Below, one piece after another: positions 22,785-60,148 of a stretch of DNA of 64,000 bases. Origin of the DNA: Mobula birostris. Its lineage: Eukaryota. Location of the stretch: positions 68,620,125-68,684,124 of the forward strand of contig NC_092382.1 in the NCBI RefSeq assembly GCF_030028105.1. Reading direction: 5' to 3'. A program made the position numbers and the translations under genes. Numbering within the stretch: position 1 is the first letter of the stretch; every line of letters starts with the position of its first letter. The notes under the pieces were generated by a model. The model was given only the letters and a program-made list of their open reading frames with translations, had not been told where the DNA came from and did no database searches.

Positions 22785-24487
22785 CTATGATTTAAGGAAT
22801 TTGGTTAACAGTTTCAATGGGTATATCACCGCGTTCTTCAGCTCCTCTCTGAACTTGCTCTGAGTCACGGCGTAAATACATGTGTTGGTGCAGGAGCTGG
22901 GGATCTGCAGCATTGTCGCCGTGGAGTCTGCGATATAAATCGGACCAGGGTCCGAAAAATGAGGGATGCTTGCAATCAGTACGTAGATGTCAAAAAACAG
23001 CAGTGTTAACCACAGAAATATAAAACTACCGGTTACACTGAATAGTATAACGACGGAGTTTCGTCGGTTCTCCATCTCCGGGTCCTTGTTATTCTTTCCG
23101 TTACTGCGGCCCCGGGGCCCCATCCGGACTTTACTGGCGGAAAAAAATCCGTCTAACTATCAGAGAATTGAACAATAAAATCAGAACAAACGGGAAACAA
23201 GGCATTAAAATACGATGAATCATCAGAAGTGCGGCCCACGAGTGGGACGTATAGAAGTTCCCTTTGGTCAAACAGCCATAGGAAACTCCATTAATTATCG
23301 CCAAAGGCTCCAATGTAAAGTAGAAAGTGACACTTTCTGAACAGCCCAAAACACTCACTGACCCGATCACCACAGCTGCCATTCTTTCAGTGCAATATTT
23401 TGTCTTTAGCTTTTCACAACAAATGGCCATAAACCTGTCACAGGTGAACGCGACTGTCAGCCACACAGAGACCCCGGTGCTTGCTACATGCAGGCAATGA
23501 ACGACCCTGCAAACGGGAGTCCTATGGAGGAAGGAAATCTAAAGTATATGTAAACAGTCCACTTCAGCAGAGGGTCAGAGATCACGACCAGGAGATCGGC
23601 CGCTGCCATTCCCAACAGGTAGAGAGTGATACATTTGGAGAGACCGCACTTTCCTCGGAACAGGATAACAATCGCCACCAGGTTAACTGCAAGAGGGAGG
23701 GAAAGAAGCAGTGGAATTACTGACCTGTCAGGGCAATAGAGAAAAAATATAGTAGCATTAGACTTGATCTTGTGTTTTTTTTTTCTGCTTCAAATGGTGG
23801 AAACCAGGCCACGGACATATGAAGCTACTGACAGTGTGCAATATCTGCGTGACGGAGAACTTGCCGCTAGATTTGTAAATGAGTTAAATCTGGGCGAATT
23901 TCCAACCCGACGAGAGGACAGCTGGTAAAATGCTTCCTCGGCAGCAGTAAGGAATGGGTATTAAATACCAACATTACTGCTCAGAGCAGCACAGGAATAA
24001 AATGAAATCCACTTCGGCAGTTCCCTCTGCTCATATTTCTAACATAAATGAGCCATTCGCGTTGTTCCATCACGCAGTCGCGCAATTCACGGGCGATTCA
24101 TACGGACAAAACAGAAGGTCTGCTGGCTCTCACGGATGCAGTGTCACCCGGTGTCTTCCTGTGCAGTCATTTCAATTCACTATTATTACATGATATCGAG
24201 ACAGCGGAGAGGATTTCAGTCAAAGGCAGCATCTCAGCTCCAATATGGAACTCTGCCTGCTACGAAAGCAATGAGAAGAATATTGTCAGCGCTTCCGCCT
24301 ATGACTGAAATGCAGGGACCGGGCAGGTGGTTGTCGAAACAAGTAGCGAGAGAAACACTTCAGACAATCGGAATTAACTATCAGTTCCTGCCGATTGCAG
24401 GCGTGACAGCGGCTTACCAGGAATTCCAACGGCTGAACTAACTGGGTAGTAAATGTCTTCTATCCGCCAGATTACTGGATATCCCAT
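22785..24487 (-). pseudogene. GPR139/GPR142-like class A GPCR, frameshifted; exon 1 24487-24418, exon 2 23686-22785
   Basis: Exon 1 MGYPVIWRIEDIYYPVSSAVGIP followed by gtaag; acceptor cttgcag; exon 2 NLVAIVILFRGKCGLSKC..AAADLL, WLTVAFTCDRF, DPEMENRRNS, SSCTNTCIY..KFREEL; frameshifts near 23540 and at the A-run near 23141-23147. Confidence 0.9.
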
Positions 24488-24569
24488 TTGAGTGACGCAG
24501 TGTCCGCTATTGCTCTGAATTCCACAGCTCGGCAAGTCACTCTGGGTTGACGTACTGCAACAGGAGCTG

Positions 24570-24576
24570 ATTTATA
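24570..24576 (-). promoter_or_regulatory. Putative TATA box of the 22785-24487 GPCR
   Basis: TATAAAT about 83 nt upstream of the ATG; both paralogs have a similarly placed TATA. Confidence 0.5.
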
Positions 24577-25267
24577 CAGGGGATCAGTCTCCAGTGACGA
24601 GGCCCCACCTCTGACCATTGTTATTGAACAAACACATTACATCACCACCAGTGTCTCCGGTGAAAATGTTGTGGGGATGTAACACCAATGCGTCAATTAC
24701 CATATTTCGATTCCTCTTTGTAATTCGAACAAAATGTGCAATGAGACCAGTGAACGGACAATGAGCGGCTGTATTTACAACTTTTCCACAGTGTATTGGC
24801 AGCCGTCACGATTGTTCCCATTTTTAAACCTGAAATTTTCACGGTGGTTCTGTTTTCACAAGCAATCCGGAATCGATGTTTCCAGCATTTTCGGCACTTT
24901 CCACTGACACGCCTGCTGTTTCATCTACAAATAGATCCGGTTTCCCCTCAGTGTGCTCTGGATCGAGGGACGCATGAAAACCCCTCTCAATCTCCTGCTG
25001 GAGACTTCAGTTCAACGTCTTCCACTTTTTATTAATTCAGCAGCTCCACATTGGCCGCTCAGTCACCAAACCCAACCCACCCGTCACACTATGTGCCACC
25101 AGGTCATACCCGCTGTGTGCACAGACACTCTGTCCAGTCCTCTGCCAGCCCTGGACGACATCGATGTTTACGTCATTTTGATTAGTCTCCCGTCTATAAT
25201 ATTTATTTTCGATGCATTGAATTCCAGAGCTGTTCACAGTTTCCTTCATCGCTTAAGCTATCTTCTT

Positions 25268-25659
25268 NNNNNNNNNNNNNNNNNNNNNNNNNNNNNNNNN
25301 NNNNNNNNNNNNNNNNNNNNNNNNNNNNNNNNNNNNNNNNNNNNNNNNNNNNNNNNNNNNNNNNNNNNNNNNNNNNNNNNNNNNNNNNNNNNNNNNNNNN
25401 NNNNNNNNNNNNNNNNNNNNNNNNNNNNNNNNNNNNNNNNNNNNNNNNNNNNNNNNNNNNNNNNNNNNNNNNNNNNNNNNNNNNNNNNNNNNNNNNNNNN
25501 NNNNNNNNNNNNNNNNNNNNNNNNNNNNNNNNNNNNNNNNNNNNNNNNNNNNNNNNNNNNNNNNNNNNNNNNNNNNNNNNNNNNNNNNNNNNNNNNNNNN
25601 NNNNNNNNNNNNNNNNNNNNNNNNNNNNNNNNNNNNNNNNNNNNNNNNNNNNNNNNNNN
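25268..25659. other. Assembly gap (392 N)
   Basis: Run of N next to GT-rich low-complexity sequence. Confidence 1.
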
Positions 25660-25850
25660 ATCTGTGTATGTATGTGTGAGCGTTTGTGTGTGTGGGGGGA
25701 GTGTATGGGTGTGTTTGTGTGTGTGTGTGGGGGGGGCTGTGTTTGTGTGTGTGGGGGGTGGATGGGTGTGGGTGTGTGTGCCTGTATGTGTGTGCTTAAT
25801 CGTGTATATATAGCTATGCGTGTATGTGTGACTATATGAGTGTTTGTGTG
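25660..25850. repeat. Degenerate (GT)n low-complexity tract
   Basis: Directly visible. Confidence 0.9.
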
Positions 25851-26271: not shown

Positions 26272-26274
26272 ACA

Positions 26275-26331
<57 letters not shown>

Positions 26332-26482: not shown

Positions 26483-26739
26483 CACGTGCTCGATCTCTTG
26501 CCAGTTCATGCACTAAACTATTTGCAAATGTCCCTGGTCATGCCGTTCTCTCCCGACACCGAAGGCATTAAACAAGATATTTTACGGTTGAGTCTGCAAA
26601 TCGATTAAGAGACAGAAAACAAACCCGAAACGACATTGAAACGGTCGCACGGCCATGTTGCGGAAAGAATGCAACGATAGCAGCATGAATGAAAAAAATA
26701 AAGTGAGTTGGGGGAACAGAGAGTATGTTTCAATTAGAA

Positions 26740-29700
26740 AATGAAGAGGAGGTTGATTTGTAATTCATATAAAAAGCAGATTAGTGGTAGAGAACAACAG
26801 CAGTGCAGAGACAATCAACAAATGGGAGACGTTCAATCGGATAAGTCAGAAGTTGTGATACCTTTTGGTACCAATGACATAGGCAGGAAGAGGGATGAGG
26901 TCCTGACATGTGAGTTTCGGGAACTATGCAGAAGACTGAAGAACAGGACCTCAAGGGTGGCGTGCTCAGGATTGCTGCCAGTGCTACGTGACAGTGATGG
27001 TAAGAATTGGAGGAGATGGCAGTTGAATGCGTGGCTGAGGAGTTGGTGCAGGGAGCAGGGTTTTAGATTTTTAGATCATTGGGATCTCTTCTGGGGAAGG
27101 TGGGACCTGTACAGATTGGATGGGTTGCACCTGAACTCGAGGGAGAGCAATATCCTTGTAGGTAGGTTTGCAAGCATGGTTCGGGAGGGTTTAAACTAAT
27201 TTGCGAGGGGGATGGGACCCAGAGCGATAGAGCAGTGAAAGAAGTGCATGGAGTAAAGCCAGAGATAACATACAGAGAGATTTTGAGGAAAGAGAAGCAG
27301 AATAAACGGTGTAAAGACAGTAAGGTAGAAGGGCTGAAATGTGTGTACCTCAATGCAAGAAGCATCAGGAACAAAGGTAATGAACTGAGAGCTTGGACAC
27401 ATACTTGGAATTATGATGTAGTGGTCATTACAGAGACTTGGCTGGCACCAGGGCAGGAATGGATTCTCAATATTCCTGGATTTCAGTGCTTTAAAAGGGA
27501 TAGAGAGGGCGGAAAAAGGGGAGGAGGGGTGGCATTACTGGTCAGGGATACTATTACAGCTACAGAAAGGGTGGGTAACGTAGCAGGATCCTCTTTTGAG
27601 TCAATATGGGTGGAAGTCAGGAACAGGAAGGGAGCAGTTACTCTATTGGGGGTATTCTATAGGCCCCCTTGTAGCAGCAGAGATACAGGGGAGCATATTG
27701 GGAAGCAGATTTTTGGAACGGTTGTTATCATGGGTGACTTTAACGTCCCTAATATTGATTGGCATGATTGGTTACAAGGGTTTAGATGGGGCAGAGTTTG
27801 TTAAGTGTGTCCAGGACAGATTCCTGTCAGGGTATGTGGACAGGCCTACTACGGGGAATGCTATACTAGATATGGTACTAGGTAATAAACCGGGTCAGGT
27901 CACAGATCTCTCAGTGGGTGAGCAGCTGGGGGGCAGTGATCACCGCTCCCTGGCCTTTAGTATTATAATGGAAGAGGATAGAAACAGAGAGGACAGGGAA
28001 ATTTTTAATTAGGGAAGGGCAAATTATGAGGCTATAAGGCTAGAACTTGTGGGTGTGAATTTTGATGATCTTTTTTGCAGGGAAACGTAATTTGGACATG
28101 TGGTCGATGTTTAGAGATTTCTTGCAGGATGTTAGGGATAAATTTGTCCCGGTGACGAAGATAAAGAATGGTAGGGTGAAGGAACCATGGGTGACAAGTG
28201 AGGTGGAAAATCTAGTCAGGTGGAAGAAGGCAGCATACATGAGGTTTAGGAAGCAATGATCATATGCGTCTATTGAGGAATATAGGGAAGCAAGAAAGGA
28301 GCTTAATAAGGGGCTGAGAAGAGCAAGAAGAGGGCCTGAGAAGGCCTTGGCGAGTAGGGTAAAGGAAAACCCCAAGGCATTCTTCAATTATGTGGAGAAA
28401 AAAAGGATGACAAGAGTGAAGGTAGGACCGATTAGAGATAAAGGTGGGAAGATGTGTCTGGAGGCTGTGGAAGTGACCGAGATCCTCAACGAATACTTCT
28501 CTTCGCTATTCAACAATCAGAAGGAAGTTGATGATGGTGAGGACAATATGAGTGAGATTGATGTTCTGGAGCATGTTGATATTAAGGGAGAGGAGATGTT
28601 GGAGTTGTTAAAATACATTAGGACAGATAAGTTCCCCGGACTTGGCGGAATATTCCCCAGGCTGCTCCACGAGGCCAGAGAAGAGATTGCTGAGCCTCTG
28701 GCTAGGATCTTTACGTCCATGTTGTCCACGGGAATGGTACCGGAGGATTGGAGGAAGGCGAATGTTGTCCCCATGTTCAAAAAAGGTAGTAGGGATAGTC
28801 CGGGTAATTATAGACCAGTGAGCCTTACGTCTGTGGTGGGAAAGCTGTTGGAAAAGATTCTTAGAGATAGAATCTATAGGCATTTCTAGAATCATGGTCT
28901 GATCAGGGACAGTCAGCATGGCTTTGTGAAGGGCAGATCGTGTCTAACAAGCCTGATAGAGTTCTTTGAGGAGGTGACTAGGCATATAGATGAGGGTAGT
29001 GCAGTGGATGTGATCTATATGGATTTCAGTAAGGCATTTGACAAGGTTCCAAAAGGTAGGCTTATTCAGAAAGTTAGAAAGCATGGAATCCAGGGAAGTT
29101 TGGCCAGGTGGATTCAGAATTGGCTTGGCTGCAGAAGGCAGAGGGTGGTGGTGGAGGGAGTACATTCAGATTGGAGGACTGTGACTAGTGGTGTCCCACA
29201 AGGATCTGTTCTGGGACCTCTACTTTTCGTGATTTTGATTAGCGACCTGATTGTGGGGGTAGAACGGTGGATTGGCAAGTTTGCAGACGACACAAAGGTT
29301 GGTGGTGTTGTAGATAGTGTAGGGGATTGTCAAAGATTGCAGAGAGTCATTGATAGGATGCAGAAGTGGGCTGAGAAGTGGCAGATGGATTTCAACCCGG
29401 AGAAGTGTGAGGTGGTACACTTTGGAAGGACAAACTCCATGGCAGAGTACAAAGTAAATAGCAGGATACTTGGTAGTGTGGAGGAGCAGAGGGATCTGGG
29501 GGTACATGTCCACAGATCCCCGAAAGTTGCCTCACAGGTGGATAGTGTAGTTAAGAAAGCTTATGGGGGGTTAGCTTTCATAAGTCGAAGGATAGAGTTT
29601 AAGAGTCGCGATGTAATGATGCAGCTCTATAGAACTTTAGTTAGGCCACACTTGGAGTACTGTGTCCAGTTCTGGTCACTTCACTATAGGAAGGATGTGG

Positions 29701-30178
29701 AAGCATTGGAAAGGGTACAGAGGAGATTTACTAGGATGCTGCCTGGTTTAGAAAGTATGCATTATGATCAGAGATTAAGGGAGCTAGGGCTTTACTCTTT
29801 GGAGAGAAGGAGGATGAGAGGGGACATGATAGAGGTGTACAAGGTAATAAGAGGAATAGATAGAGTGGATAGCCAGCGCCTCTTCCCCGGGGCACCACTG
29901 CTCAATACAAGAGGACATGGCTTCAAGGTAAGGGGTGGGAAGTTCAAGGGGGATATTAGAGGAAGGTTTTTTACTCAGAGAGTGATTGGTGCGTGGAATG
30001 CACTGCCTGAGTCAGTGGTGGAGGCAGATACACTAGTGACGTGTAAGAGACTACTAGACAGGTATATGGAGGAATTTCAGGTGGGGGCTTTATGGAATGC
30101 AGGGTTTGAGGGTCGGCACAACATTGCGGGCCGAAGGGCCTGTACTGTGCTGTACTATTCTATGTTCTATGTTCTATA
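26740..30178 (+). mobile_element. Long CR1 LINE: ORF1 SGNH-esterase domain plus ORF2 (APE + RT), disabled by stops and frameshifts
   Basis: ORF1 GTNDIGR..DGLHLN (SGNH blocks III and V); ORF2 YLNARSI, ITETWL, MGDFN, SDH, GVPQGSVLGP, FADDTK; tail ttctatgttctatgttcta. Confidence 0.96.
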
Positions 30179-31680: not shown

Positions 31681-32319
31681 GTTTGGAATTAGTTTACATT
31701 TGGAGTAGATATTCCATTTACCCCTGAGGACCTCAGCGCAGTGTATGATTCCACGTACGTCATGCATCTGAGATGTTAACTTTGCTGGAGGGGTTTGAGT
31801 CCGGGATAGCGTTATGAAGATTTATGTTATGACCAAGATTTATTCTGTATAGTTAATTGTTTTGCGTGGTTAGAATTCCTGTCTCGTAACACTGGGTATG
31901 TTTGCTCAAGTCTTTCAGACCGAGTATTTGAGGTAATTGTGGATGCTTCAATATATTCGCTGCAATATCGGAAGGTTCTCGTTATTCCCATCTATTCTTG
32001 GCCTGTTCTGCTACCTTGGGAGAATTCCCTCATTCATTGTTTTGTATAGATCAGGCAGATCCACTATTTGAACTCATCTGGAAATGTTGAGGTGTGTTGT
32101 TCCTGGCTTATTCCAAGGACAGAAGGCTGAATGACGTGGACGTATCGGGAGATTACTTTACACATAGAAGCTGTTTTTGGCATTGTACGGTTCAATCATT
32201 CGGATAATTTTCACAGATAGACTATCAGCATTCGGCATTGTGTTACTGCAGAGATTTATCTCCGGTAGAAGTGTCAATATTAAATTTATATTCAATAGTT
32301 TGGCCGTTTAATATTTCCC

Positions 32320-33132: not shown

Positions 33133-33149
33133 CTAAAGACTCTAAAGAC

Positions 33150-33775: not shown

Positions 33776-33808
<33 letters not shown>

Positions 33809-33991: not shown

Positions 33992-34066
<75 letters not shown>

Positions 34067-45173: not shown

Positions 45174-46507
45174 TATTAAAATGACTTGATCGGATACAGA
45201 CTGTCAATTATGTTCAGGAAAGTTCATTTCATTAATACGCAGAAGTTACAATAATAGAGAACGATACTTGACCTGCAAGTATAGAATGAGACCGGGCAGG
45301 TGACAGAAATTCCTGGAGGGGAACATATTGTATCAATTGATCAAAGTATTATTTGCATCAAATTAAATACAAGAGAACGATATTTCTGGTATGGGGGTTG
45401 AGATTCTAACTTGAAGAAAGTCGAATTTGGCCGGTATGAGAAAAGATCTGGAAAATGTAGATTAGGGCAGGGTGTTTTCTCGTTCACTTGGTAAGTGGGA
45501 GGATTTCAGAAGTAACACTTTGAGAGTAGAAAGCGTCTATGTGCCTGTCGGCATGAGATGTGATGATAACCGGTTTAGAAAATCAAGGGATTTTGACGAG
45601 CAGATTGAGAAGAAAATGTTGTATATAGCAGTTATAGGCAGGTAGGAACATATGCGGTGCTTATGAGTATAAGAAGTGCAGGGGAACACCAGGGTAAAAA
45701 AAAATCAAGAGGGAAAATGCATGAGGTTGCTCTAGCAGACAAGGTGAAGGAGAATACAAAAGGATTGTACAGATATTTTAGGAAGGAGACGATTGCAGTA
45801 CAGAACAGGTCCTCTGGAAGATGAGATCCACAATCCGTGCGTGGAAACAAAAGAGATAGGTTGATCGATAATAGACTTCTTGCGTCTGTATCAGCCTGAA
45901 GTATCAGACGACGAAATAGCAAATATTATTGCTAACTAAATAAAATAATCCAGCACCCCGAAATATATACAGGTTCCGGAGCCAATATAGTAAAACAACA
46001 AACTGGTTCACATCTTCGTGATTAATTAATAAATAGGGGATATTATTTGTAAGGAAATGTCAGCTAAACTATTTGGCGTAAAAGTCGGAAATTATTTAGG
46101 AATAAATGCGGCTGCGCCATACAGAATGAAGTCTGGAATACCAGATTCCCTATCATTTTTATTTGAAAATTAATTATTTAAATAGCACAATTTGATGACG
46201 ACAGACAATGCATCGTAGAGTAGTACAATTTGCATTGCGAGCGTTAATTTTGCCAGCAGGGATGTCTTGCTTATTCATAACCCATTCCCAGTGAGTAATG
46301 TTGGTTACTGCCAAAGTTATCAATGCGATCATTGACTAGCTAGTGCAATGAACCTATATATTCCATTTGCCCAGAGTGTTTCGTCTTCAAAAAAGAAACG
46401 AATTCTCTTTATCTACATTCCGAGATTTACCGAATGCTGACAAAAACAATAAAGCTTTCGAATATTTATTTGCAATTTCAAACAAGTTCTAGCGGATGGT
46501 ATTTCTG

Positions 46508-48084
46508 TTATTTACACCGCAACGCATTTATTGTCAAAACAAATCTCATCCCATTTTTTAGCACCTTTCTGAACTTCTTCTGCGTCAGGCCATAGATGCA
46601 CGTGTTGGTGCAGGTACTGATAGAGACGTTAGCATAGTACCACACTATTGAAAGATGTACATCGGTGTATTCAAGTATTTGTCTGTGAAAGAATAGTTCT
46701 CTGCTTGCCAGTTTATAGAGTGTATTATATAGGGCATCCATAGTAAAATGAAATTGCCTGAGAAAGCGAACAATAAAATAATAGACTTCCTCCGGTTCTC
46801 TACTTCAGGGTCTTTTTGATATTCACTGTTACTCCGGAGTCCCTTGCGGGCTCTATCTGCCGCTATAATGTGTTTCGCTGTTAAACCGTTACACAGAAGG
46901 ATTGGTAATAACGGAGATTTGATGCTGTCAAATAACTCGTAGGCCTTCCACACTGATGAAGTGAAGTATTCAGGTATTAGTACACAACGCCAAGGAACAT
47001 TGTTAATTGTTACATAAGGCTCCACAACAAAGTAGAACGGAATACACCTGACAAAGCTCAGAGTCCCCACTATTACTATGACTGCGGTCGCCACTCTCTC
47101 CGTGCAGTACCGTTTCCGAAGATTCTGACAGCAAATCGCAACGTAGCGATCGATTGTGAAAGTAACTGTTAGCCAAACGGAACAGTCAAAACTTGCAATT
47201 TTAAGCAGGAGGGTCAGAGCCCAAATCGGAGTAATGTGCTAGAATCTGGCGTACAAATACAGATTATTAATATCCTCAACAATAATAGCAATGACAACGG
47301 CAATGAGATCTGCCGCAACCATTCCCACCAGGTAGCGAGTGATATAGTTGGAGAGTCCACATTTTCCACGGGACAGAATCGCCATCGTCGTTACATTGAC
47401 TGCAATGTAAAAAGAAAACATGAAGTTCAATTCACAGAATTTTAAACGAATCGATTTCCCCCATGATTTGCAAATCGGTAAGATGCTGAGCACACTGAAC
47501 ACATGCAAAAATCTGCAATTGTCGCTTGTATTTCTAGCGTAGTTGCCCTTACGATGTCAGGGTGCAAATATCTGACGTGACTAATGCTGCCTAGTGTGGA
47601 GATGATTTATTCCAGAAGCCTGGTAATAAATAATTTATGATATCTGTGGAAGCAAATGGTTAATGATACAGGTAGATAATCCTTCAGGAAAATTAGAAAT
47701 GAAAGGAAATCAGCTGTTTTTGTGTGACAGTTGGACAGATAGAGCAAACGGACCGTGGCTGATAATGTAAAACCAGCGTTGCAGTCGGAATAAATAGTTT
47801 CATCTGGCGGATTCAGTAGAACTGTCAATATGATCCTCTGAATGAACTGCTTTCTTCCCAAATTCGTTAAAATGCTAGGAAAATAGAGATAGTGAGAGGA
47901 GTCGGGAAAAGGTCAACATTACTACGAAGTAAAATGGTTAAATTGACGATTTTACGAGTCATGAGCAATAGGAAGACGAATCAATTCATATAGCAATCAG
48001 ATGTAGTGTCCAACCTGGAATGCTGACCGCGGCAAGGATGGGATAATAGATGCGTGCTACGTGGTAAATAGTTACATACGACAT
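46508..48084 (-). pseudogene. GPR139/GPR142-like GPCR pseudogene; exon 1 48084-48015, exon 2 47399-46508
   Basis: Close paralog of 57952-60148; TAG at 47241-47239, TAG at 46647-46645, frameshift near 46620, 9-nt in-frame deletion in TM5, weak donor gttgga. Confidence 0.93.
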
Positions 48085-48149
48085 TATCTCAGAGCTGTCG
48101 TTCAATGTTTCTCCAGATACTCCATGTACTGGCAAAGTGCTTATACAGT

Positions 48150-48156
48150 TTTTATA
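48150..48156 (-). promoter_or_regulatory. Putative TATA box
   Basis: TATAAAA 65 nt upstream of the ATG, conserved with 57883-57889. Confidence 0.55.
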
Positions 48157-48964
48157 TTGTAGAAGGGAGGTCCACTGGGACAATCCGCGAACGACTCATC
48201 ACTCCAGTCAGCCACAACCCGCTGAGCAAACACAATTGACTTTGTTTTTGCCAGTTGTACCATTGTGATTTACATTTCATTCCTCGATGAGTATGGAGAC
48301 TTTTTTGTGCAACTTATTCTTATATGTTGCAAGGTTTATCCTCGACATGAGGTTTCTGCTGTTTGAATACAATTTATTCTCTTTTTCAATGTTACTTATA
48401 AATCGCCCCATGTGACGATTATCATTATGGTGGGCGCTGAATGTGGTCTTATAAAAAATGAGGGAACGGCTTTAATTTAGAACCTGGCCAGTTCACGTCA
48501 CGGACTCACTTCACAGACAATTTTCGCGGAGAATGTTTCGTAACAAAGCAACTTCCGCCACGAACATACTTACCTTTAATGGCGTAACCTCCCAACCGTT
48601 AATTTGAATGACTTGTAAGTACACGAACAGGCATTCGGCTCTCGGGCAGCCCTGTGGACGTTGTAGTCAAGTGAAATGCATTGTATCCCAGCACACAAAG
48701 AAATTATTCCGTCGGAACGATCGGATATCTGACGCTGAAATGATGACTCATCGAGGCCCTATTGATCTTCTGATACATTCGCTTGTATTTTTAATTTTCA
48801 AAATTTATCTGCATTGCCTTTGCAGCACCTCCACTACTGTTTCCCCTGCAATACCTGAGCGGATCCTTCCTAAAGTAAGATGATCCTATTCCCCTCCATA
48901 GCGAACTGTTCTCCACCGAGTAGAAAACCCATCGTGTCTTGTTTTCATATTTTCAGGACATATT

Positions 48965-50325
48965 CAGAATCAGAATCAGAATCAGGTTTATTATCACCGA
49001 CATGGACGTGAAATTTCGCAACTTAGTAGCAGCAGTTCTATGCAATACATATTATAGANNNNNNNNNNNNNNNNNNNNNNNNNNNNNNNNNNNNNNNNNN
49101 NNNNNNNNNNNNNNNNNNNNNNNNNNNNNNNNNNNNNNNNNNNNNNNNNNNNNNNNNNNNNNNNNNNNNNNNNNNNNNNNNNNNNNNNNNNTGCTACCTA
49201 TATTGAATAGATTAAGATGGTGCAAAAACATCAATGCTGCATGTTAAAATGAAGTAAGCTATTGTTGAAAGGTTCAATGACCGTTTCAGAATCGGATGAC
49301 AGTGGGAAAGAAGCTGTTCCTGAATCACTGTGTGTGTGCCTTCAGGCTTCTGTACCACCTACCTGATGGTAGAAATGACAGAAGGGCATGCCCTGTGTGC
49401 TGGAAGTCCTTAATAAGGTACAATGCCTTCCTGAGGTACCTCTCCTTGAAGATGTCCTGGCTAGTACTCAAAATGGAGCTAACTAAATTATTAAACCTTT
49501 CGACCCTGTGTAGTAGACACCACCACCACCACCATATCAGACAGTGTTGCAGCCTGTCAGAATGCTCTGCACCGTACATCTATAGGTTTTTAAGAGTATT
49601 TGTTGACTTACTAAATCTCCTCAAACTCTTAATAACATATATCCGCTGTCTCATCTTCTTGAAAACAGCATTAATACGTTGAGAAAAGGTTAGATCCTCA
49701 GAGATCATGACACCCAGGAACTTGAGATTGTTCACTTTCACCACGTCGAATCTCTCTTTAAGGATACGTATGTGTTCCTTCGTCTTACCATTCCGGAAGT
49801 CCACAATCATCTCTTTCGTCTTACTGACGTTGACTGCCATGTTGTTGCTGCGATAATACTCCCCTAGTTGACATATCTCACTCTTGTACGCCCTGAGATT
49901 CTACGAACAATGCTTGTATCGTCAGCAAATTTATCGATGGGATTTGAGCTATTACTAGCCACACAGTCATGGGTATACAGAGAGTAGAGCAGTGGGCTAA
50001 GCACACACCCCTGAGGTGCACCAATGCTGATTGTCAGCGAGGAGGATATGTTATTACCAATCGTCACAGATCGTGGTCTTCCGTTTAGAAAGTCGAGGAT
50101 CCAACGGCAGAGGGAGGTACAGAGGACAGAATTCTGCAACTTCTCAATCAGGATTGTGGGAATGATGGTATTAAATGCTGAGCTATGGTCGATCAATCGT
50201 CCGCATCTTCACATAGAGGTTTGTGTTGTCCAGGTGGTCTAAATCCGTGTGAAGAGCCACTAATGTTGCATCTGGCGTTAACCGATTGTAGCGCTAGGCA
50301 AAATGCAACTGGTCAAGGTCCTTGG
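48965..50325 (-). mobile_element. Rex1/Babar-like LINE, 5'-truncated (contains the 49059-49191 gap)
   Basis: [55 protein letters not shown]; (attctg)n tail at about 48965-48985. Confidence 0.9.
49059..49191. other. Assembly gap (133 N)
   Basis: Run of N. Confidence 1.
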
Positions 50326-53300
50326 TGAGCAGGATTTATTTTTAAAGGTACACAAAAATATTCGTTCAGAAATTCTGACACTTACAAGAGGGAGATATAC
50401 TCTCCCAATGCAACTAACTGCTGAATAGAAATGTACATTTTTCACTGTTATTATCCCAGTACATTTTTATTAGATCATCCTGGATACACTGTAGAAGAGA
50501 TCACAATGTGATTTTAAAACACCAGACAGAGAAATGTATCGATTGTGTTCATATACTTCTAGCGGAATGGACCAACGACAATTATCCTTTATGCCTCTTT
50601 CTGATTTAGTTTTATTTCTTTGCTCAGTAATTATCCTAGATCTGAAAGTTCAAATTCTTTCTGCAGATCCTGCGCGACTTTTATTTGCATTAATCCATGA
50701 GAGGGAATTTGGTGAAAGTGTAATGTTGGACAACTTCATTGATGAGCATTATCCTGTGAAACTACCGTGGCGATAGAATTGTCAGCTATCAACTACGCCC
50801 AAGAAAAATATATAGATGAATTATTTCAATGATCTCTCTCTAACCACCACTGCTCTGAGGCTCACAAATCTATTGCTTCCGGGATTATTCCTCTCTCACT
50901 TCTTGAAAGATCGAACGACTTTAGCTGCTCGCCAGTCCTCCAGGAAGGATTCTGCGCAAGACACAATACAGCCTACTACTCCTTAATGAATTACTTATTT
51001 CTTCTGCTAAATCATAGCTGTTGTTGGACTTAGTATTGCAATGATCTCCGTCAACAATGATGTTACTCAGATCCGAACCATCGATTCAAAACTGCAGCCT
51101 TTGATTTTCTGGACTGCTGCAGCACAGAAGGGTTTCTGCCTTTCTCCAGACTTTGGCTCTGTAGTGGAGTACTACTACAGCTAACCCTCCTCTCCGCCGT
51201 CCGTTTCAATGAAAATTAAATAATTTCATCCAGTTTCAACTCATAGCTGAAGCACACCACCCTACATAACGTAGAGGAGAACATTGGCTGTACATTCGGT
51301 TGATCAATCACGTACAATCTGTATTGTTGCGACCAAATCTACATGAAATATCACAGTGATGGCCTAATCACAATTTACTAACGCCTTTTGCTTAAATCCA
51401 CACCCTTGGAAACAAGGTGCTCCCAATAACGAGGGTAAGCGCAAGGAATGAATTTTCAGAACCCTCTTGTTGCTTCCTTCGAAATTTCACTAATTTCGCA
51501 CACAGTCCACTCTATTGCTGGTGCTTTCTACGTCCTACTGTTCATGGGATATGTTTTGATCCATATTAAATGCTACAAGATATATTGCATTTACGTACTG
51601 ATGTTAAATTGTTACTCTTATTCCTCCCTGAACATTTAGAGCTAATCAAAACTATACCACACTCCATACTTCCCTTCGCATGATCAAGAACACCATTATT
51701 CTAGGCGTCATCTGCAATGCCGATGTTTATATAATCTTCATTTATCTCTACGAACTACTGACATTCAGAATAAATGAGGCTGGAGCACCAAAATCTGAGT
51801 AGTCGCTTTGTTGCAGGCTTCCAGTCACAGAAGACAGTCTCGACTATCAACATCTGCATCTTGTTATCAGTCAGCTTTTGGATTCAATTTCAAAACATAT
51901 CGTGCATGAAATATGTCCGTTATGGACCTTTGCAGAATACAATGCGACACGGAATTCCAGAACGCATAAGTCCCAATGACCACTACCTTATATCGTCAAT
52001 TGGCAAGCCAATTCCGACTTCCAACGGCGAATTCAAGATAGATCTCATGAACATTAATGTTTTTGAAAGACCTGGTACATTATCATATTTATTTCAGAAA
52101 TACTTGAAGACAATGTCCACAGTTCTATCTTCATAATTACTCTGCTCAGCTCTCAGAGAAAAAAACAATATCAATCTAGTTAGTTGCACACAAGTGGCCC
52201 AATACAAAGTGATATTTACCACCTCAATTTCGCTATAGTTTTCCAAATGTTTTTAAATCCTAGTTCCAATCATACTCTCCAGTAAACTCCCCATCCTCCA
52301 AGCACATGCTTCTTTCTTTATCCTTTTGTGATTCACTCGCTTCGTGGTTATGTCTTTGATCTCGATGTATGTACAGAACTTTCTTTTGGATTCTCTTTAA
52401 TTCGACTCTCGTAATCCGTTTCTGGACTTCCTTTCACGCAGATATATAATCCTATAGGGCCAAGTTTTATCCAAACTTCCTAAATCTTTCATACGTTTTT
52501 TTTTGTTCTTTTGACTAAGTTCATCAGCCCAAAACAGCAAACTGCGGGGAGTCGCTGCTTTATGGACACATTCGCTGAACCTGAGTTTTATCACGAAAAG
52601 GATCTCCAAATGGCCGCTGCTCAAAACGCTCCGAAATTGATTTATTGCATTGTATAACGTTTGCACTCATCTGCATGCATGCCCATAACTTCCATAGTTT
52701 CATGGATTTAAACTGTAAAAGTAGGGCTTTCGGCACACCGTGCATATACAGTATTGACTTTTGCCGATCTACATGAAAGTCGTTTTCACAATTTGTAAAT
52801 ACATACTTGTGGGCTTGGATTATTAAATTGTTTGTTTGCATAACTTTTAGTGGCACTTCGAAACTCCTACCTCACATTTTTTATTCTCTACCATCTTTCT
52901 TGTGAACCTCTCTATTTGGCAACTCTGCTTCCTGGACCACATTGGATCTAATACTTTGTTGTGCTCTACACATTTCTTAGAACTGACAGAAGTATGACTC
53001 TTGGCGCGAAAAAATCGCATTTTCCTCAAGTTCATTGCAAGTGTCACGTGCTACATGACCCAATACAAACCACTGCAATAGGAAGACATGAGCAAAATTA
53101 ATATGTTACCACCTTAATACACACCGTATTTAATTCCTTGCAAAGCCCACCAGTCTAGGAAGAGCTCTGTGGTACCATTGAGCAGCGTATGTTCTATATC
53201 CAATGGATACTCAGAGACGAAGAAAACACAAAGCATAGCCAGTACCACCGGAACATTGTTTTGCGAACCCCGCCCTGCCTTCGGACTCGTGCACAAATCT

Positions 53301-54110: not shown

Positions 54111-55324
54111 TGTTTTTTGTTGAAGTTAATATCGATCAAAAAGAAATCCCATGAACAGAGGATTTAGAAAGCACAAGCAACAAATTGGAATTTGTGCATC
54201 AATTATTGAAATTCCGAAGGATGCATGAACAGGGTTCTGGTGTATAATATGTTTAGCCTTATCATACGGAGCATAATCTGTGTGTTCCCCGAAAGACGTT
54301 ATTCTCAAATTGTGGTGTACAATCACTGACACATTTTGCGTAGTTTTTATCACAACAATACCAAGGACGTGATTACACAGCAGAAGGAGCAGCGCACTTT
54401 CTCCAAGATGTTTTCTCGGATGCTGCGCTTTTAACAGGAGTGGTAACTGTGTGAAATTATTTAATTTTCATTGATACACGCGGTGACGAGGAGCATTAGT
54501 TGTAGCTATCCTCAATTAACCGATACGGAGAGTGTAGAAGGAAAGAGACCTTTCGGGACAGCTTAACTGGCTAATATCAAATTTTATAGTTCTGCAGAGA
54601 AGTGTAAGGGAAGCTTCGGATTTGAGTAAAGTCATTGTTGCCAGAGATGATTGCAATATGGAATGGAATGCCTCTGTAGGACGATGGTTTGGTTATTCAA
54701 CAATAGTTATGAATCAACCGAAGAAAGAAATGCATCGTTAAGACAGAATATGGTACACCTTTTCACACGCACGTGTGTTACCGGAGGGCTGGTGAATAGC
54801 CAATGCTGTTCGATTATTCGAGGAGCGAGCGAGGAATAATCATGGAAGACATAGACTGGTGAGCCTCAGATCAGTGGTGGTTTGCCATAGTTTTCGTGGG
54901 TGGAGCTGACTGACAATCCTCACCCCACAACAGTTTAACAGAATGATGTCCTTCAATAAAACTTTTGAAGCACGCACTTTCACCGAATATCCTCTCATGC
55001 ATTAATGCAGATGCTGCTGCAAATTCCATCAGCATCTGCAGAAAGAACTTTAACCTCAAGACATAAGTTACTTTACTAACAGAGAGAAATAAACGAAGAA
55101 CAAAAAGTGGCATAAAGGATCATTTTCCTTTGTCTATTCCAGTAGGAATAAACAAAAACCGTCGATACTTTTTCAGAAGTTTTCAAACATCGATTGGTGA
55201 TTGAAATATACATGATGATCTCTTCAACAGTATGTCAGGATTGTCTAATGCATGATGGTAAGATAACAACAGTGACACAAATATATATTATGTTCAGCAG
55301 TTATTTTGAATACGAGAGGATATT

Positions 55325-56635
55325 AGCATAAGATTAGATAAAATGAGATACATTCAACCGTTATTTATCCCGAAGGAAATTATTGCTGCAAAATTGCTCA
55401 TATAATTTAAAATATGAGCATTAAAAAGTAATACTGCAAAGCACAGATGTGCAACAAAACCATAAAATTATATACGTAAGGGGAAGGAGTTGTAGAGTCG
55501 TCTAACCACAAGGAGAAAGGATCTCCTGTTGCGTTCAGTGGTGCAGCTCGGTGGAATCATTCTGCTACTAAAGATGCTCCCCTGTTTGTCATGGAGAGGC
55601 TGAGGGGAGTTGTTCATAATGCCCCGGTAGCTTCTGCACCATCCTCCGCTCTGACACAACCACCAGAGATCAAACTCCACCCTCTTAACAGGGACAGCAT
55701 TCCTTACGAGCTTTTTAATCTTCTTGGCGTCAGATGATCTCAACCGCCACCCTAGAAGAATACAATGTAAATCTTCTGGCCACCACCGAGTCGGAGAACT
55801 TCTGCAGCATAGGACTCCGGGTGTTGAATGACCGGCGCCTCCTCAGGAATTACAGGCAGCTCTGTGCCTTCTTGTACAGAGACTTTGATTTTCAGTGCAG
55901 TCCAGATAATTCTCCAGGTGAGTTCCCAGGTGTCTCTAGCCCCCAACACAAATTCCTTCGTCTTCAGGATGTTCAGCAGTAAAGCTCAATAAAGTTTTCC
56001 ACCACTCATCTGTACTCAGCCTGTTGACCCCGCCTGATACAGCCCACAACGGCCGAATCTGCAGGTGGCAGGACTCCGAGTTTTATAGGGATGTCCGCGG
56101 TAGGCGGTGAACAGGAAGAAGGACTGGACAGTCCACTGAGGTACCCCCTGTGCCTGTAAGCACAGTAACTCATGCACAGCTCTGCAATCTCACATACTGA
56201 GGCCATTTGGACCGGTAGTCTGTAAACCAGGAGAATAATGAAGTATCCACCTGCATTTCCGTGAGCTTATATCCTAGTAAAGCAGGCTGAATAATATTAA
56301 AACACTGGAAAAATCCAGGAACATGATTCGCAGTGTTGCCTGGTTCGTCTAGATCGGTCCCGTTGAAGCAGGGAGAAAATTGTGTACTTGATTCCAATAT
56401 GTGATTGGTAAGTAAATCTTAAATGGATTTACGATGGTCTGGTTGTATGTTGGGAGCATTCTTCCTCTTAATTTCATAACAAGTGAAATCAGTGCCACTG
56501 GTCTGTAGTCTCTGGGCGTGGTAGGACATGTCTTCTTGGGTCCTGGAACTAGGCAGGGTGTTTTCCAAGGCGGTGGGACTCTCTCCAGGCTCAGGGTCAA
56601 ATTAAATATGAATTGAAAGACTGCACCCTTCATCT
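55325..56635 (-). mobile_element. Decayed Rex1/Babar-like LINE
   Basis: WKTPCLVPGPKK..DYRPVALISLVMK, SWFTDY..RPQYVRL-like and TERNRRSFL motifs. Confidence 0.8.
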
Positions 56636-56639
56636 CCTT

Positions 56640-56985
56640 CTGCTGTCCATCGATTTCGAGGTTGGCTGTGCTGAGAGTTTAGTCGCTGCAGACACGTTTA
56701 TGTGCCACAAAACCAGCGTTGCATCGGCACTGTCTCCCACATCTGTTTCATTTGTGATTTGACTGATCCAGAACCGAATGTTTGCGTGAATGACCTGCTT
56801 CATGTCTCTTCTGCCTTTTCTCCTCGATAGGTGGGATTGACTTCTTGACAATGCAGTGCCAACTTCTTCTGTCCAAAGCATCTTTCTCCCAGGTGTTGAC
56901 ACTCATGTCAGTGTTCTTCATACGGCGCTTGGGCATGTCTTCGCAGCGCAGTGTGACGTAGGAGGGACGCTGGCCGAACATCAGC
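56640..56985 (-). mobile_element. RTE-type LINE C-terminal fragment
   Basis: LRCEDMPKRRMK..VNTWEKDALDRRSW resembles the RTE/BovB ORF end. Confidence 0.55.
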
Positions 56986-57882
56986 GAAGTAGGGCGGAGA
57001 TTCTTTCTAACCTGGCCGTGAAGGTGATGTCCCATCGCTATACTACCAGACTAGCTCTAGTAGTAGGATCGTGGCTAGCTAAGTCAGGGAGATAAGCTTG
57101 CATGTGCTACTTTGTAGGTTGTTGCTCTTCAGGCAAAGGCCGCACCCAACGAGGACGCCGGGGCAGCGTGTCTGATGGTGGCTGTGACAGTTGAATCCAA
57201 AAGACTGCACCCAGATGAGGAGCAAACACGTTCCTACCCTCCGGCCGATGCCGTCCAGATTGACCGCCTTGCCCCTGTGAAGTCTGCTAATCTCTCTCCT
57301 TAACTCCCTTGTTTAGCAGTGACAGTCCGTGTGTCTGTGTTCGTTGGCTCTACCGTGCGGGGATATAATGCATTTCATCTTATTATGAGTTACATATCAC
57401 TCCACGCATGCGTGTCGTTAAAGTCATTCAAATTAGCCATTTGACTGGATTTATGCCAGCAGCGATGGGTAATTGCTGGAGAAATGTTTCTATGCTACAC
57501 AACATTTGCGGTAATAGCATTCAGGACTGAAATAGCCCGTGAAGAGAGTCCGTGGCGTGAATCGGCCAGATTATGTATTAAACCTGTTCGCTCATTTTAC
57601 AAGTCTACGAACTGCTCTGCTGTAATGATTCTGGCCACAAAGGGCGATTTCCAAGTGACATTGATGAAAAAAAAACTTTATTCAAGAACAGAAACCACAT
57701 GTCAAGGAAAAAAATATTGAACAAGTTGCATAAAGAAATGTCCATTCTCATCGAGGATTAAAATTTATTTCATAATGACTGAACGAGCAAAAACAAAATG
57801 AATTTTGTTTCCTCAGTGGGTTGTATCTGATTGGAGTGTTGATTCGCTCGCCGGGTTTCCCCAGTGGATCTGCCTTCTACTA

Positions 57883-57889
57883 TATAAAA
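57883..57889 (+). promoter_or_regulatory. Putative TATA box of the intact GPCR
   Basis: TATAAAA 62 nt upstream of the ATG; position conserved in the inverted paralog. Confidence 0.6.
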
Positions 57890-57951
57890 TCTGGATAAAC
57901 ACTTTGCCAGCACGTGGGGCATTTGTAACAACTTAGAACAACTTACGGAAA

Positions 57952-58021
57952 ATGCCGTATGTAACTATTTACGATGTGGCACGCATCTATTATCCGATCC
58001 TTGCAGCGGCCGGCATTCCAG
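57952..58021 (+). CDS. GPR139/GPR142-like GPCR, coding exon 1
   Basis: aaaATG start; MPYVTIYDVARIYYPILAAAGIP plus G, then gtaggg donor; 70 nt, as in both paralogs. Confidence 0.88.
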
Positions 58022-59252
58022 GTAGGGCACTACGTCTGGTTGCTGTTTGTGTGTATTCGTCTTCCTACTGCACGTGGCGCTAACAGCAAACTAATCTGGT
58101 TGCTGTCCAGTCCTCAATTTTAATACTTTTGTTCCTGGTAATTCTGATATTTTTCTTTCCGACTGCTTGGGATCGTAAACTCTGCATCATCACTGGTCAA
58201 GTGAGAAACTTGCTTCCCGGAGGTAAAGATATATCAAATTGTATATCTGCATTCGGGAAACACCAGGGTGACTGGAAGTGAGGCTATATACTGACTGAGT
58301 GAGTGTCACGGATAGATTACTGTACTGGTCATTACAACAGATGGAGAATGGAAAAAAGAAAACTTGCTGCAGAGTAGTGACTAAAGAACATTGGATGAGC
58401 GTTTCGAGAAGAAGCTCGATAGTAATAACCTTTTCGGTATTACATTCGGTCCCATTCCATTTCTGATAATCTGTCTGTTTAAACGAAGTTCAGCGCAAAC
58501 TTGGACCACAGCTGCTCTTCCGCACCAGGAACACGACAGTCTTCAAGAATGAATATCTAATCTCTAATTTAGTGTATCTCTCACTCCCGCTTGTAGCGCC
58601 CTACCCCGTTCGTTCGATGACATTGAACCCGTTTTTCTTTATCTACTGCCGCAATCTCAGCAACAGGTGAGTTGGCAGATCTGCGCCCTGAGGCTCTGGC
58701 AGTCTGCTTTTTTTAAAATATTGTTTTCACAGGATTTCAACGCAACTTGTTTTAGGATCAAATTGACAGTCGATTGTATACACCAGACAACTCTGTCTAT
58801 AGCTACTACACTGGAGGAGTTACGGTGTCGAACACAGCCTATTTCTTCTCTCCATCTCACTCCAGTCCCGCTGCAATACAACAGCAGCAGATTTTCCTTT
58901 ATTATTAATTTTGCTTAAGAATTCATTGGCCTGAAACATTAACCATTTGTTTCGACATCTGTCTCCTGACCAGTAGAACTTTTTGCATTATTTTTCTCTC
59001 TCTCTCATCGGACGTCTGCAACATTTTCGGGAGGCATATTCCTCTCAGTGATTTCATCTTACTTTATGAAACACTGTCAAGTCTATTATTTACAACCTGG
59101 CTTTTTAAGCGCAAGTACGCCGCTAACACAGATGACTGTAGCCTTACCGGTGTATGCTCATTGCAATCGGCATTATTCTCATTGGTTAACCGGGGGAAAT
59201 GATTCGATTGAACTTCTTTAAAGTTAACCTCTATTTTCTCTTTATATTGCAG

Positions 59253-60148
59253 TGAATTTAACGGCGATTGTGATCCTGTCCCGAGGAAAATGTGGACTCT
59301 CCAAATGTATCACTCGCTACCTGGTGGGAATGGCTACGGCAGATCTCATTGTCGTTGCCATTGTAGTTATAGTTGAGGATATCAATAATCTCTACATGTA
59401 CGCAACCTTCTTGCACATCAATCCGGTTTGCGCTTTGACATTTGTGCTTAAAATTGCAGGCTTCGACTGCTCCGTTTGGCTCACAGTTGCTTTCACAATC
59501 GATCGGTACGTTGCGATTTGCTGTCAGAATCTTCGGAAACGCTACTGCACCGAGAGAGTGGCGACCGTGATGATAGTAACAGTGAGCATCGTGGGCTTTG
59601 TCAGGTGCATCCCGTTTTACTTTGTAGTGGAGCCTCATGTAGTAATCAACAAAGTACCGTGGCGTTGCGTCTTCATACCAGAGTACTTCACTTCACCAGT
59701 GTGGAAGGCCTACGAGCTATTTGACAGCATCAAAACACCTTTATTACCAATTGGTTTAATCCTTTTATGTAACGGTTTAACAGCGAGACACATTATAGCG
59801 GCAAATAGAGTCCGTAAGGGACTCCGGAGCAACACTGAAAATCAAAAAGACCCTGAAGTGGAGAACCGGAAAAAGTCTATTATTTTGTTGTTCGCTCTGT
59901 CAGGCAATTTCATTGTACTGTGGATGCCTTATATAATACACTCTATGAACTGGCAAACGGTGAATCATTCCTTCACTGACAAACATTTGAATACTACGAT
60001 ATACATCTTTCAAAAGTGTTCTATTATGCTAATGTATCTGAGTACCTGCACCAACACTTGCATCTATGGGCTGACGCAAAGGAAGTTCAGAGAGGAGCTC
60101 AAAAATGGGATGAAGTATGTGTTGACGTTAAATAGATTGCAGAAGTAA
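59253..60148 (+). CDS. GPR139/GPR142-like class A GPCR, coding exon 2 (intact; spliced CDS 966 nt, 321 aa)
   Basis: Polypyrimidine tract plus ttgcag acceptor, phase 1; TM1 GIPVN, TM2 MATADL, TM3 IDRYVAIC, TM6 FIVLWMP, TM7 STCTNTCIY, helix 8 KFREEL; YYPILAAAGIPVNLTAIVILS resembles GPR139 TM1 ([21 protein letters not shown], from recall). Confidence 0.93.

What the first reader, a model, noticed from the sequence alone, without database searches (positions are those of the whole stretch)
22785..60148. Birth-and-death cluster of GPR139/142-like receptors: candidate uncharacterised chemosensory or metabolite-sensing family
Seen: three paralogs in 37 kb, one intact and two disabled. All have a TATA box, a 70-nt coding exon 1, a phase-1 intron inside TM1 (GIP|VN), almost no extracellular N-terminus, an ICL1 signature RGKCGLS, DPExENRxxS before TM6, and NTCIY in place of NPxxY. 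Extracellular loops differ strongly between the two subfamilies while intracellular motifs are conserved. Established: mammalian GPR139 and GPR142 are single-copy receptors activated by aromatic amino acids (Trp/Phe). Inference: clustering, frequent pseudogenes, a short N-terminus and variable outer loops mirror OR/TAAR/V1R repertoires. This may be a chondrichthyan-expanded receptor system for amino acids or peptides, sensory or immune. Automated annotation probably labels such genes 'GPR139-like'; I know of no established function.
Basis: partly seen in the sequence, partly recalled or inferred. Interest (0 to 1): 0.75.

Follow-up and report, generated by a model that had tools for sequence, protein, structure and literature searches.

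The report
Hidden receptor repertoire of sharks, rays
Three neighbouring receptor genes (one intact, two broken) belong to a family with dozens of copies in some sharks and rays whose predicted ligand pockets differ from copy to copy, while amphibians appear to keep one almost unchanging sister gene, so this is likely an overlooked set of chemical sensors, though where it is expressed and what it binds are untested.

Summary
The window carries three two-exon class A GPCR genes: C intact (321 aa), B a clear pseudogene, A probably one. B and C are a head-to-head inverted duplicate. They belong to a large chondrichthyan family auto-named 'GPR139' (at least 63, 46 and 35 distinct proteins in three species, from partial lists). 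They are not GPR139 orthologues: identity is 21-22% by structure alignment, and none of 292 members keeps GPR139's five Trp/Phe-site residues. New here: the closest relative is an apparently single-copy orphan gene of amphibians and sturgeon (support 99.6/100). At matched divergence its pocket is 97% identical, against 60% among same-species shark/ray paralogues. Within the family, pockets tend to be kept between orthologues and changed between paralogues, as in odorant receptors. Best reading: a diversified ligand-sensing repertoire, probably chemosensory and for peptide-like cues; immune or barrier sensing is the main rival. I found no expression evidence. Short N-terminus and missing NPxxY are clade-wide, not chemosensory hallmarks. 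Low-copy 'GPR139-like/GPR210' orphans are in print; my searches found no paper on the expansion. The scan noted this family before in another ray genome (e1-7813824).

The parts
24570..24576 (-). Gene A TATA-like box (TATAAAT), 89 nt before the ATG
24418..24487 (-). Gene A coding exon 1 (70 nt, 23 codons + 1 base; ends GIP)
23687..24417 (-). Gene A phase-1 intron, 731 nt, GT..AG, inside TM1
22785..23686 (-). Gene A exon 2 (TM1 to C-terminus); -1 frameshift near 23541, +1 frameshift in T7 run 23141-23147; probable pseudogene; 47% identical to C
48150..48156 (-). Gene B TATA-like box (TATAAAA), 72 nt before the ATG
48015..48084 (-). Gene B coding exon 1 (70 nt; ends SIP)
47400..48014 (-). Gene B phase-1 intron, 615 nt
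46508..47399 (-). Gene B exon 2; stops at 47239-47241 and 46645-46647, 9-nt deletion in TM5, +2 frameshift near 46620, C3.25W; pseudogene; 77-78% identical to C
57881..57889 (+). Gene C TATA-like box (TATATAAAA), 71 nt before the ATG
57952..58021 (+). Gene C coding exon 1 (70 nt; ends GIP)
   Evidence: near-identical N-terminus in database protein P0004
58022..59252 (+). Gene C phase-1 intron, 1231 nt
59253..60148 (+). Gene C exon 2; open frame, spliced product 321 aa, Pfam 7tm_1 E 6e-26, seven-helix model with ECL2 beta-hairpin
45898..51578 (-). B-side arm of the inverted B/C duplication (3' flank, gene, promoter 47965-48523, and a 64% match at 50395-51578)
54117..60729 (+). C-side arm of the inverted B/C duplication (64% match 54117-55323, promoter 57530-58071, gene and 3' flank to 60729)

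Best explanation
These three genes are members of a large, rapidly duplicating and decaying family of short-N-terminus class A G-protein-coupled receptors in sharks, rays and chimaeras that likely works as a chemosensory repertoire, each copy predicted to bind a different, probably peptide-like, outside cue and to pass it to a shared G protein. Shown: the gene anatomy; the local inverted duplication and decay; dozens of divergent copies per species; a sister relationship to an amphibian/sturgeon orphan gene rather than to GPR139; loss of the GPR139 Trp/Phe site; a pocket that is nearly frozen in the sister gene but is the most variable transmembrane class in the family, beside a conserved cytoplasmic half. 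Inferred: different ligands per copy (about 0.8); peptide-like ligands (about 0.5, from the C3.25-ECL2 cysteine pair, the ECL2 hairpin and the Wamide/RFamide-receptor ancestry); a common G protein; expression in smell, taste or skin chemosensory cells (about 0.45).
For: Family size: 113 of 120 listed hits for C are named elasmobranch proteins and 7 are unnamed; 119 of 120 for A are named chondrichthyan proteins; the lists overlap by 1. There are 105 clusters at 50% identity with E<=1e-30; of 20 identified, 17 are chondrichthyan, 1 salamander, 2 without taxon. Lower bounds: Heterodontus 63, Heptranchias 46, Mobula hypostoma 35 of 240 named rows, against 20-62 olfactory receptor genes of all four families per cartilaginous fish (PMC10869828 passage). 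Sister gene: 20 amphibian clusters, each from a different species, plus one sturgeon; clade support 99.6/100. Pocket: 279 of 292 distinct 17-site signatures in the family versus 2 of 22 in amphibians, and the sturgeon shares 14 of 17 with them. At 66-80% overall identity, pocket / other outer-half / inner-half identity is 0.60/0.70/0.85 in 976 same-species family pairs and 0.97/0.79/0.72 in 98 amphibian pairs; 0 of 20000 random outer-half site sets reach that drop. Same-species sister pairs (52): pocket 0.79 versus 0.83, p=0.015; cross-species sister pairs (18): 0.86 versus 0.80, p=0.067. B versus C dN/dS is 0.28 over 311 codons. C3.25 is present in 98% and the ECL2 cysteine in 288 of 292; hairpin in the model. 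Protostome relatives of the GPR139/142 group bind aromatic-ended peptides (PMC8557429 passages).
Against: There is no evidence of expression in any organ. Catshark olfactory neurons are nearly all Go/TRPC2-positive microvillous cells, which fits V2Rs (PMC10116579 passages). The top-50 olfactory list of the catshark held no GPCR at all (PMC11979771 section 11; this does not discriminate, since V2Rs are absent too). By tree-based counts the pocket is only modestly more variable than other outer-half sites (residues 1.42 vs 1.21, p=0.11; chemical class 1.61 vs 1.18, p=0.026). In Narcine (17 pairs) and Rhinoraja (21 pairs) the pocket is better kept than other outer sites, and B versus C shows no pocket excess (0.78 vs 0.77). 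Pairs are not independent, the sample is biased to relatives of A and C, database models may include repaired pseudogenes or isoforms, the pocket list is a recalled generic class A set, and no site-wise dN/dS was possible. Foldseek ranks peptide receptors first but does not discriminate.
Confidence: 0.45

Rival explanations
1. The family is an immune or barrier sensor repertoire (working like FPRs or MRGPRs) on leukocytes, gill, gut or skin cells, detecting microbial or damage-derived peptides.
For: The same signature (tandem birth-and-death, variable pocket, conserved cytoplasmic face) is expected under pathogen-driven selection. Peptide-receptor architecture. Three exon-like pieces at 636-2000 resemble, from recall only, the N-terminus of shark NLR-type genes.
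Against: No expression data. The NLR resemblance was not confirmed (Pfam, PDB, Atlas and folding gave nothing usable). The ancestry is neuropeptide-receptor, not chemoattractant-receptor. Pockets kept between distant orthologues, e.g. Heptranchias-Mobula 0.94 at 0.80 overall, suggest stable ligands for some copies.
Confidence: 0.25
2. The family reads an expanded set of the animal's own peptides (neuroendocrine, reproductive or pheromonal), as the protostome MIP/FMRFamide/proctolin receptor group did.
For: The protostome sister group expanded together with peptide precursors (PMC8557429 passages). The frozen pocket of the amphibian/sturgeon gene implies one conserved endogenous ligand at the root.
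Against: Lineage-specific turnover and frequent pseudogenes (2 of 3 here; species-specific blooms) are unusual for hormone receptors; no matching peptide-precursor expansion was looked for or is known to me.
Confidence: 0.15
3. Copies multiply passively in repeat-rich regions and diverge under relaxed selection; only a few matter and most pocket change is neutral.
For: Two of three copies here are broken; the region is full of LINE and Penelope-like elements; pocket versus other outer sites is not significant at residue level (p=0.11).
Against: Hundreds of full-length open frames across lineages, with invariant DRY, C3.25 and W6.48; inner half 85% identical in paralogues; dN/dS 0.28 for B/C; pockets change faster than neighbouring sites in paralogue pairs and slower in orthologue pairs.
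Confidence: 0.1
4. They are amplified GPR139-like sensors of tryptophan and phenylalanine.
For: Human GPR139 is the best solved-structure match by sequence (profile E 7e-22, the only receptor under 1e-18).
Against: F3.33, H5.42, W6.48, R6.51, N7.39 (PMC5430874 passages): 0 of 292 have all five, 7 have four, 171 have at most one. Identity is 21-22%, where true fish orthologues keep 70% (PMC7318219 passage).
Confidence: 0.05

Closest known systems
GPR139 / GPR142 (class A orphans activated by L-Trp and L-Phe)
   Same: Best solved-structure match by sequence; no P7.50; short N-terminus; GPR139 also has two exons (PMC7318219 passage; a shared intron position is recalled, not tested).
   Different: Only 21-22% identical; Trp/Phe site not kept; the family has C3.25, an ECL2 cysteine and a hairpin where the aligned human GPR139 shows no cysteine and a shorter loop; dozens of copies against one.
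Non-mammalian 'GPR139-like' orphans: GPR210A/B of Rinne et al. 2019 (PMC6504862) and 'Orphan 139-like' in PMC5207463
   Same: Coelacanth, teleost and bichir proteins P0357, P0361, P0380, P0394 branch just outside the family and share the short N-terminus and both cysteines; that they are the GPR210 sets is my inference, since the paper's IDs could not be matched.
   Different: Described as low-copy genes in bony fishes; the passages searched hold no shark or cartilaginous fish. They are not the immediate sister group.
Unnamed amphibian/sturgeon orphan (P0335, P0417-P0436; auto-named GPR139)
   Same: Sister clade, 99.6/100; shares an ICL1 G..LSK-type motif (20 of 22), DPE..RR (19 of 22) and CIY (21 of 22); N1.50 at residue 25-27.
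   Different: Apparently one copy per species with a near-invariant pocket; 28-34% identical to C; N2.50 instead of D2.50.
Vertebrate chemoreceptor repertoires (OR, TAAR, V1R, T2R) and FPR/MRGPR expansions
   Same: Works like them in genome behaviour: clusters, pseudogenes, lineage blooms, pocket variable among paralogues and tending to be kept among orthologues.
   Different: Separate origin within the peptide-receptor-like GPR139 group; an intron inside TM1; no match to their Pfam families; sensory expression not shown.

Membership tests
Class A (rhodopsin-like) GPCR | 7tm_1 profile above cut-off and seven-helix fold | tested here: met
   PF00001 91.8 bits vs cut-off 30.5; model pLDDT 84.8 with seven helices; TM-score 0.7-0.8 to class A structures
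Class A (rhodopsin-like) GPCR | N1.50, D2.50, DRY, W6.48, C3.25-ECL2 cysteine pair | tested here: met
   All present in C and in 88-100% of 292 members; P7.50 is replaced by T in 85%
GPR139/GPR142/GPR210 supergroup | Closest characterised receptor is GPR139 | tested here: met
   Family profile E 7e-22, the only receptor under 1e-18; single-sequence margin over TRHR is small (41.4 vs 35.4 bits)
GPR139/GPR142/GPR210 supergroup | Nests with chordate GPR139-like receptors to the exclusion of invertebrate peptide receptors | tested here: inconclusive
   Nested among amphioxus, coelacanth and teleost GPR139-like proteins, 94.8/99, but no true GPR139 or GPR142 sequence could be fetched for the tree
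GPR139 orthologues | High identity to human GPR139 (zebrafish 70%) | tested here: not met
   21-22% in structure alignment; amphioxus and coelacanth relatives score higher against GPR139 (100.8, 70.4 bits) than C (41.4)
GPR139 orthologues | Trp/Phe site F3.33, H5.42, W6.48, R6.51, N7.39 | tested here: not met
   0 of 292 with all five; C has I, D, W, Y, I
GPR139 orthologues | Single-copy gene in conserved synteny | tested here: not met
   Three copies in the window and dozens per species; synteny not testable, no genome held
Chemosensory receptor repertoire (functional class) | Clustered multigene family with birth-and-death turnover | tested here: met
Chemosensory receptor repertoire (functional class) | Pocket variable among paralogues, conserved among orthologues | tested here: met
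   modest effect, the orthologue half has p=0.067, and two species go the other way
Chemosensory receptor repertoire (functional class) | Positive selection on pocket codons | not testable with these tools
   No coding DNA for database proteins; only B vs C (dN/dS 0.28)
Chemosensory receptor repertoire (functional class) | Sparse expression in sensory neurons or cells | not testable with these tools
   No RNA holder listed; catshark expression supplement unreadable
Chemosensory receptor repertoire (functional class) | Activation by external chemical cues | not testable with these tools
   Needs heterologous assay
OR / TAAR / V1R / T2R gene families | Sequence match to these families | tested here: not met
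   Only 7tm_1 and a sub-threshold Srx hit; nearest relatives are GPR139-like

The most novel reading that the evidence does not exclude
A fifth vertebrate olfactory/chemosensory receptor family, recruited from a single neuropeptide-type orphan receptor and expanded only in cartilaginous fishes, outnumbers their OR, TAAR, V1R and V2R genes together and explains how sharks and rays discriminate many cues with a supposedly tiny repertoire.
Probability: 0.3. Interest if true: 0.92.

Novelty: new variant of a known kind. Interest (0 to 1): 0.72.

Why it matters
Cartilaginous fishes are described as GPCR-poor (PMC8455134 passage) with only 20-62 olfactory receptor genes, and this is explained as sensitivity traded for discrimination. 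A family that reaches or exceeds that number in some species, hidden under one automatic name, would be missing from those counts. If it is sensory, it changes that account and adds an independent origin of a chemoreceptor family. If it is immune, it is a new innate receptor repertoire. Either way it is directly testable with existing catshark and skate tissue RNA. The frozen-pocket sister gene in Xenopus and axolotl gives a laboratory route to the ancestral ligand.

Tried and rejected
Genome-wide count in this species: no genome held. Expression: no RNA holder listed. Three same-species runs of uncertain kind gave 13, 24 and 13 contigs at 80-95% likeness, none at 95% or more; the listed pieces run into the intron ends and no exon1-exon2 joint is listed, so they say nothing on expression. 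The seven unnamed Logan proteins examined show no exon-1 start, so they are not evidence of spliced transcripts. True GPR139/GPR142 for the tree: not returned, so placement relative to them rests on scores against the PDB chain. Matching P0357 to the GPR210 IDs failed. Fold search did not separate GPR139 (ranks 36 and 41) from other class A receptors. Identity of the exon-like pieces at 636-2000: Pfam, Atlas, PDB and a single-sequence fold were uninformative. Rejected: short N-terminus and NTCIY as chemosensory hallmarks (clade-wide); 'family only in chondrichthyans' (sister gene in amphibians and sturgeon); reading 1450 hits as the family size (only 120 were seen, and the rest may include other GPCRs); reading contig depth as copy number. 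No complex prediction was sent, as no protein partner is claimed. Literature searches with no paper on the expansion: (open-access library only).


Full report
1. What is in the window. tblastn with gene C finds three related genes and nothing else above noise. Gene A (- strand): exon 1 24487-24418, intron 731 nt, exon 2 23686-22785. Gene B (-): exon 1 48084-48015, intron 615 nt, exon 2 47399-46508. Gene C (+): exon 1 57952-58021, intron 1231 nt, exon 2 59253-60148, a complete 321-aa frame. All three have a 70-nt coding exon 1, a phase-1 GT-AG intron just before N1.50, and a TATA-like box 71-89 nt upstream. B has two in-frame stops, a +2 frameshift, a 9-nt deletion and has lost C3.25. A has a -1 and a +1 frameshift that cancel, with stops between them; the second lies in a T run, so assembly error is possible, but A also has two Leu-to-Pro changes at nearly invariant columns. 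I take it as a probable pseudogene. B and C face away from each other 9.9 kb apart and match over promoter, exons and 3' flank (75-78%): an inverted local duplication. dN/dS between them is 0.28 over 311 codons, so both were constrained for most of their history. A is 47% identical to C and belongs to another subfamily. Between the genes lie LINE and Penelope-like elements. Both A and B/C group with skate and ray genes, so the window likely comes from a batoid.

2. The family. No genome is held, so size comes from protein collections. C: 1450 of 2133 candidates pass E 1e-3; of the 120 listed, 113 are named elasmobranch 'GPR139' proteins and 7 unnamed. The other 1330 were not seen and may include other receptors. 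A fragment: 184 of 450 pass; of 120 listed, 119 are named chondrichthyan proteins, one from Callorhinchus. Among 50%-identity representatives, 105 reach E<=1e-30; I identified 20 of them: 17 chondrichthyan, 1 salamander, 2 without taxon. From 240 named rows, lower bounds are 63 (Heterodontus francisci), 46 (Heptranchias perlo), 35 (Mobula hypostoma), 17, 16, 15 and 10 for four more species, with median within-species identity 49-62% in the five species checked. Some rows may be isoforms or repaired models. In three same-species runs, 5-10 distinct contigs per run cover one conserved position of exon 2, none 95% or more like C, and only 16 and 13 of 40 listed differences match B and A, which points to further paralogues in this species.

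3. What it is related to. Human GPR139 is the best solved-structure match (profile E 7e-22), but identity is 21-22%, whereas zebrafish GPR139 is 70% identical to human (PMC7318219, passages). The nearest non-chondrichthyan hit is a salamander orphan (31%, E 3e-35). Searching with it returned 25 of 1675 candidates: 20 amphibian clusters, each named from a different species (66-74% to the query), one sturgeon (46%) and four chondrichthyan proteins. Single-copy status is inferred, since the word-based search can miss divergent paralogues. FastTree on 347 of 442 sequences (95 dropped as short or partial) and IQ-TREE on 47 agree: family plus amphibian/sturgeon gene form a clade (99.6/100); 29 of 30 family sequences form a clade (96/87), with one divergent catshark protein (P0308) unresolved. 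Coelacanth/teleost, bichir/anchovy and amphioxus GPR139-like proteins branch outside, then invertebrate receptors. True GPR139 and GPR142 are missing from the trees. Low-copy relatives are in print as GPR210A/B (PMC6504862, passages and one supplement row) and 'Orphan 139-like' (PMC5207463, table passage). The whole group is sister to protostome MIP, proctolin, FMRFamide and myosuppressin receptors (PMC8557429 passages; PMC12208981 passages).

4. The pocket. Positions were numbered from helix anchors; the list of pocket-facing positions is a recalled generic class A set. GPR139 binds Trp/Phe through F109, H187, W241, N271 and, by modelling, R244 (PMC5430874 passages). Of 292 family sequences none has all five, 7 have four and 171 have at most one; C has only the Trp. 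The amphibian gene shows 2 pocket signatures in 22 sequences and the sturgeon shares 14 of 17 sites; the family shows 279 in 292. At equal overall divergence, pocket identity is 0.97 among amphibians and 0.60 among same-species family pairs, while the cytoplasmic half goes the other way (0.72 vs 0.85). No random outer-half site set reaches this drop (0 of 20000). Sister pairs within a species have pockets less alike than neighbouring sites (0.79 vs 0.83, n=52, p=0.015); sister pairs across species more alike (0.86 vs 0.80, n=18, p=0.067). Against: tree-based residue changes at pocket versus other outer sites are not significant (p=0.11; class changes p=0.026); Narcine and Rhinoraja pairs and B versus C show no pocket excess; pairs are not independent. 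The model of C has seven helices and an ECL2 hairpin. Both disulphide cysteines are kept in the family and its non-mammalian relatives but are not seen in the aligned human GPR139, which looks like the derived member. Foldseek lists CCK, neurotensin and TRH receptors first, with little separation.

5. How it most likely works. One ancestral orphan receptor with a fixed ligand was released in the chondrichthyan line, copied by tandem and inverted duplication, and diversified on its ligand side while its G-protein side stayed conserved (sequence pattern shown; function inferred). I put 0.8 on different ligands for different copies. For the site of use: 0.45 external chemosensation, 0.25 immune or barrier sensing, 0.15 endogenous peptides, 0.10 mostly passive expansion, 0.05 GPR139-like amino-acid sensing. 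Nothing here shows expression: no RNA holder was listed, and the contigs laid appear unspliced. Catshark olfactory neurons are nearly all microvillous and V2R-type (PMC10116579 passages), and the catshark top-50 olfactory list has no GPCR (PMC11979771 section 11). That paper's supplement could not be read and may hold expression data on this family.

6. Novelty. Clustered class A expansions are a known kind, and low-copy GPR139-like orphans are known, but nine searches of the open-access library found no paper on this expansion; subscription journals and most supplements were not searched. Passages from papers on shark GPCRs stress paucity (PMC8455134; PMC10869828). PMC12294341 (passages) held nothing relevant. 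The scan noted the same family in another ray genome (e1-7813824). My results agree on the expansion, do not verify its figure of about a thousand genes, and qualify 'only in sharks, rays and chimaeras' with the amphibian/sturgeon sister gene. Verdict: real, a new variant of a known kind, interest 0.72.

Noticed in passing
window 636-806, 1724-1888 and about 1913-1998, - strand: Three small exon-like pieces with clean splice signals, running out of the left end of the window; from recall they resemble the helical N-terminus of shark/ray NLR (NACHT) proteins. Pfam, Atlas, PDB and folding did not confirm this.
   Followed up: partly
window 26738-30179 (+) and 17934-20018 (-): Near full-length LINE with GDSL-esterase ORF1, endonuclease and reverse transcriptase frames (CR1-type by recall), and a 91% identical partial copy in opposite orientation, flanking gene A; many further 3' fragments.
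   Followed up: partly
window 42164-45113 (-) and 32299-33135: Reverse transcriptase plus GIY-YIG endonuclease frames (weak Pfam hits), a Penelope-like element, with a 78% partial copy.
   Followed up: partly
runs X1-X3 laid on window 59247-59913: Contigs of other paralogues have depth 597/363/92 and 1243/763/65 where others have 2-9: possibly a high-copy near-identical array of one paralogue, or library enrichment; depth is not a copy number.
   Followed up: no
proteins P0335, P0417-P0436: An unnamed orphan GPCR conserved across frogs, salamanders, a caecilian and sturgeon with a near-invariant pocket and N2.50 in place of D2.50; mis-named GPR139 in databases and a deorphanisation target of its own.
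   Followed up: partly
protein P0308 (Scyliorhinus torazame): Most divergent chondrichthyan member; its position between the expansion and the amphibian gene is unresolved (14/49), so it may be a conserved orthologue.
   Followed up: no
window 12320-15349: Non-coding direct repeats of 300-460 nt (67-78% alike) and a perfect 71-nt tandem at 13947-14097.
   Followed up: no
window 25268-25659 and 49059-49191: Two assembly gaps (N runs), 0.8 kb upstream of gene A and 1 kb upstream of gene B.
   Followed up: no
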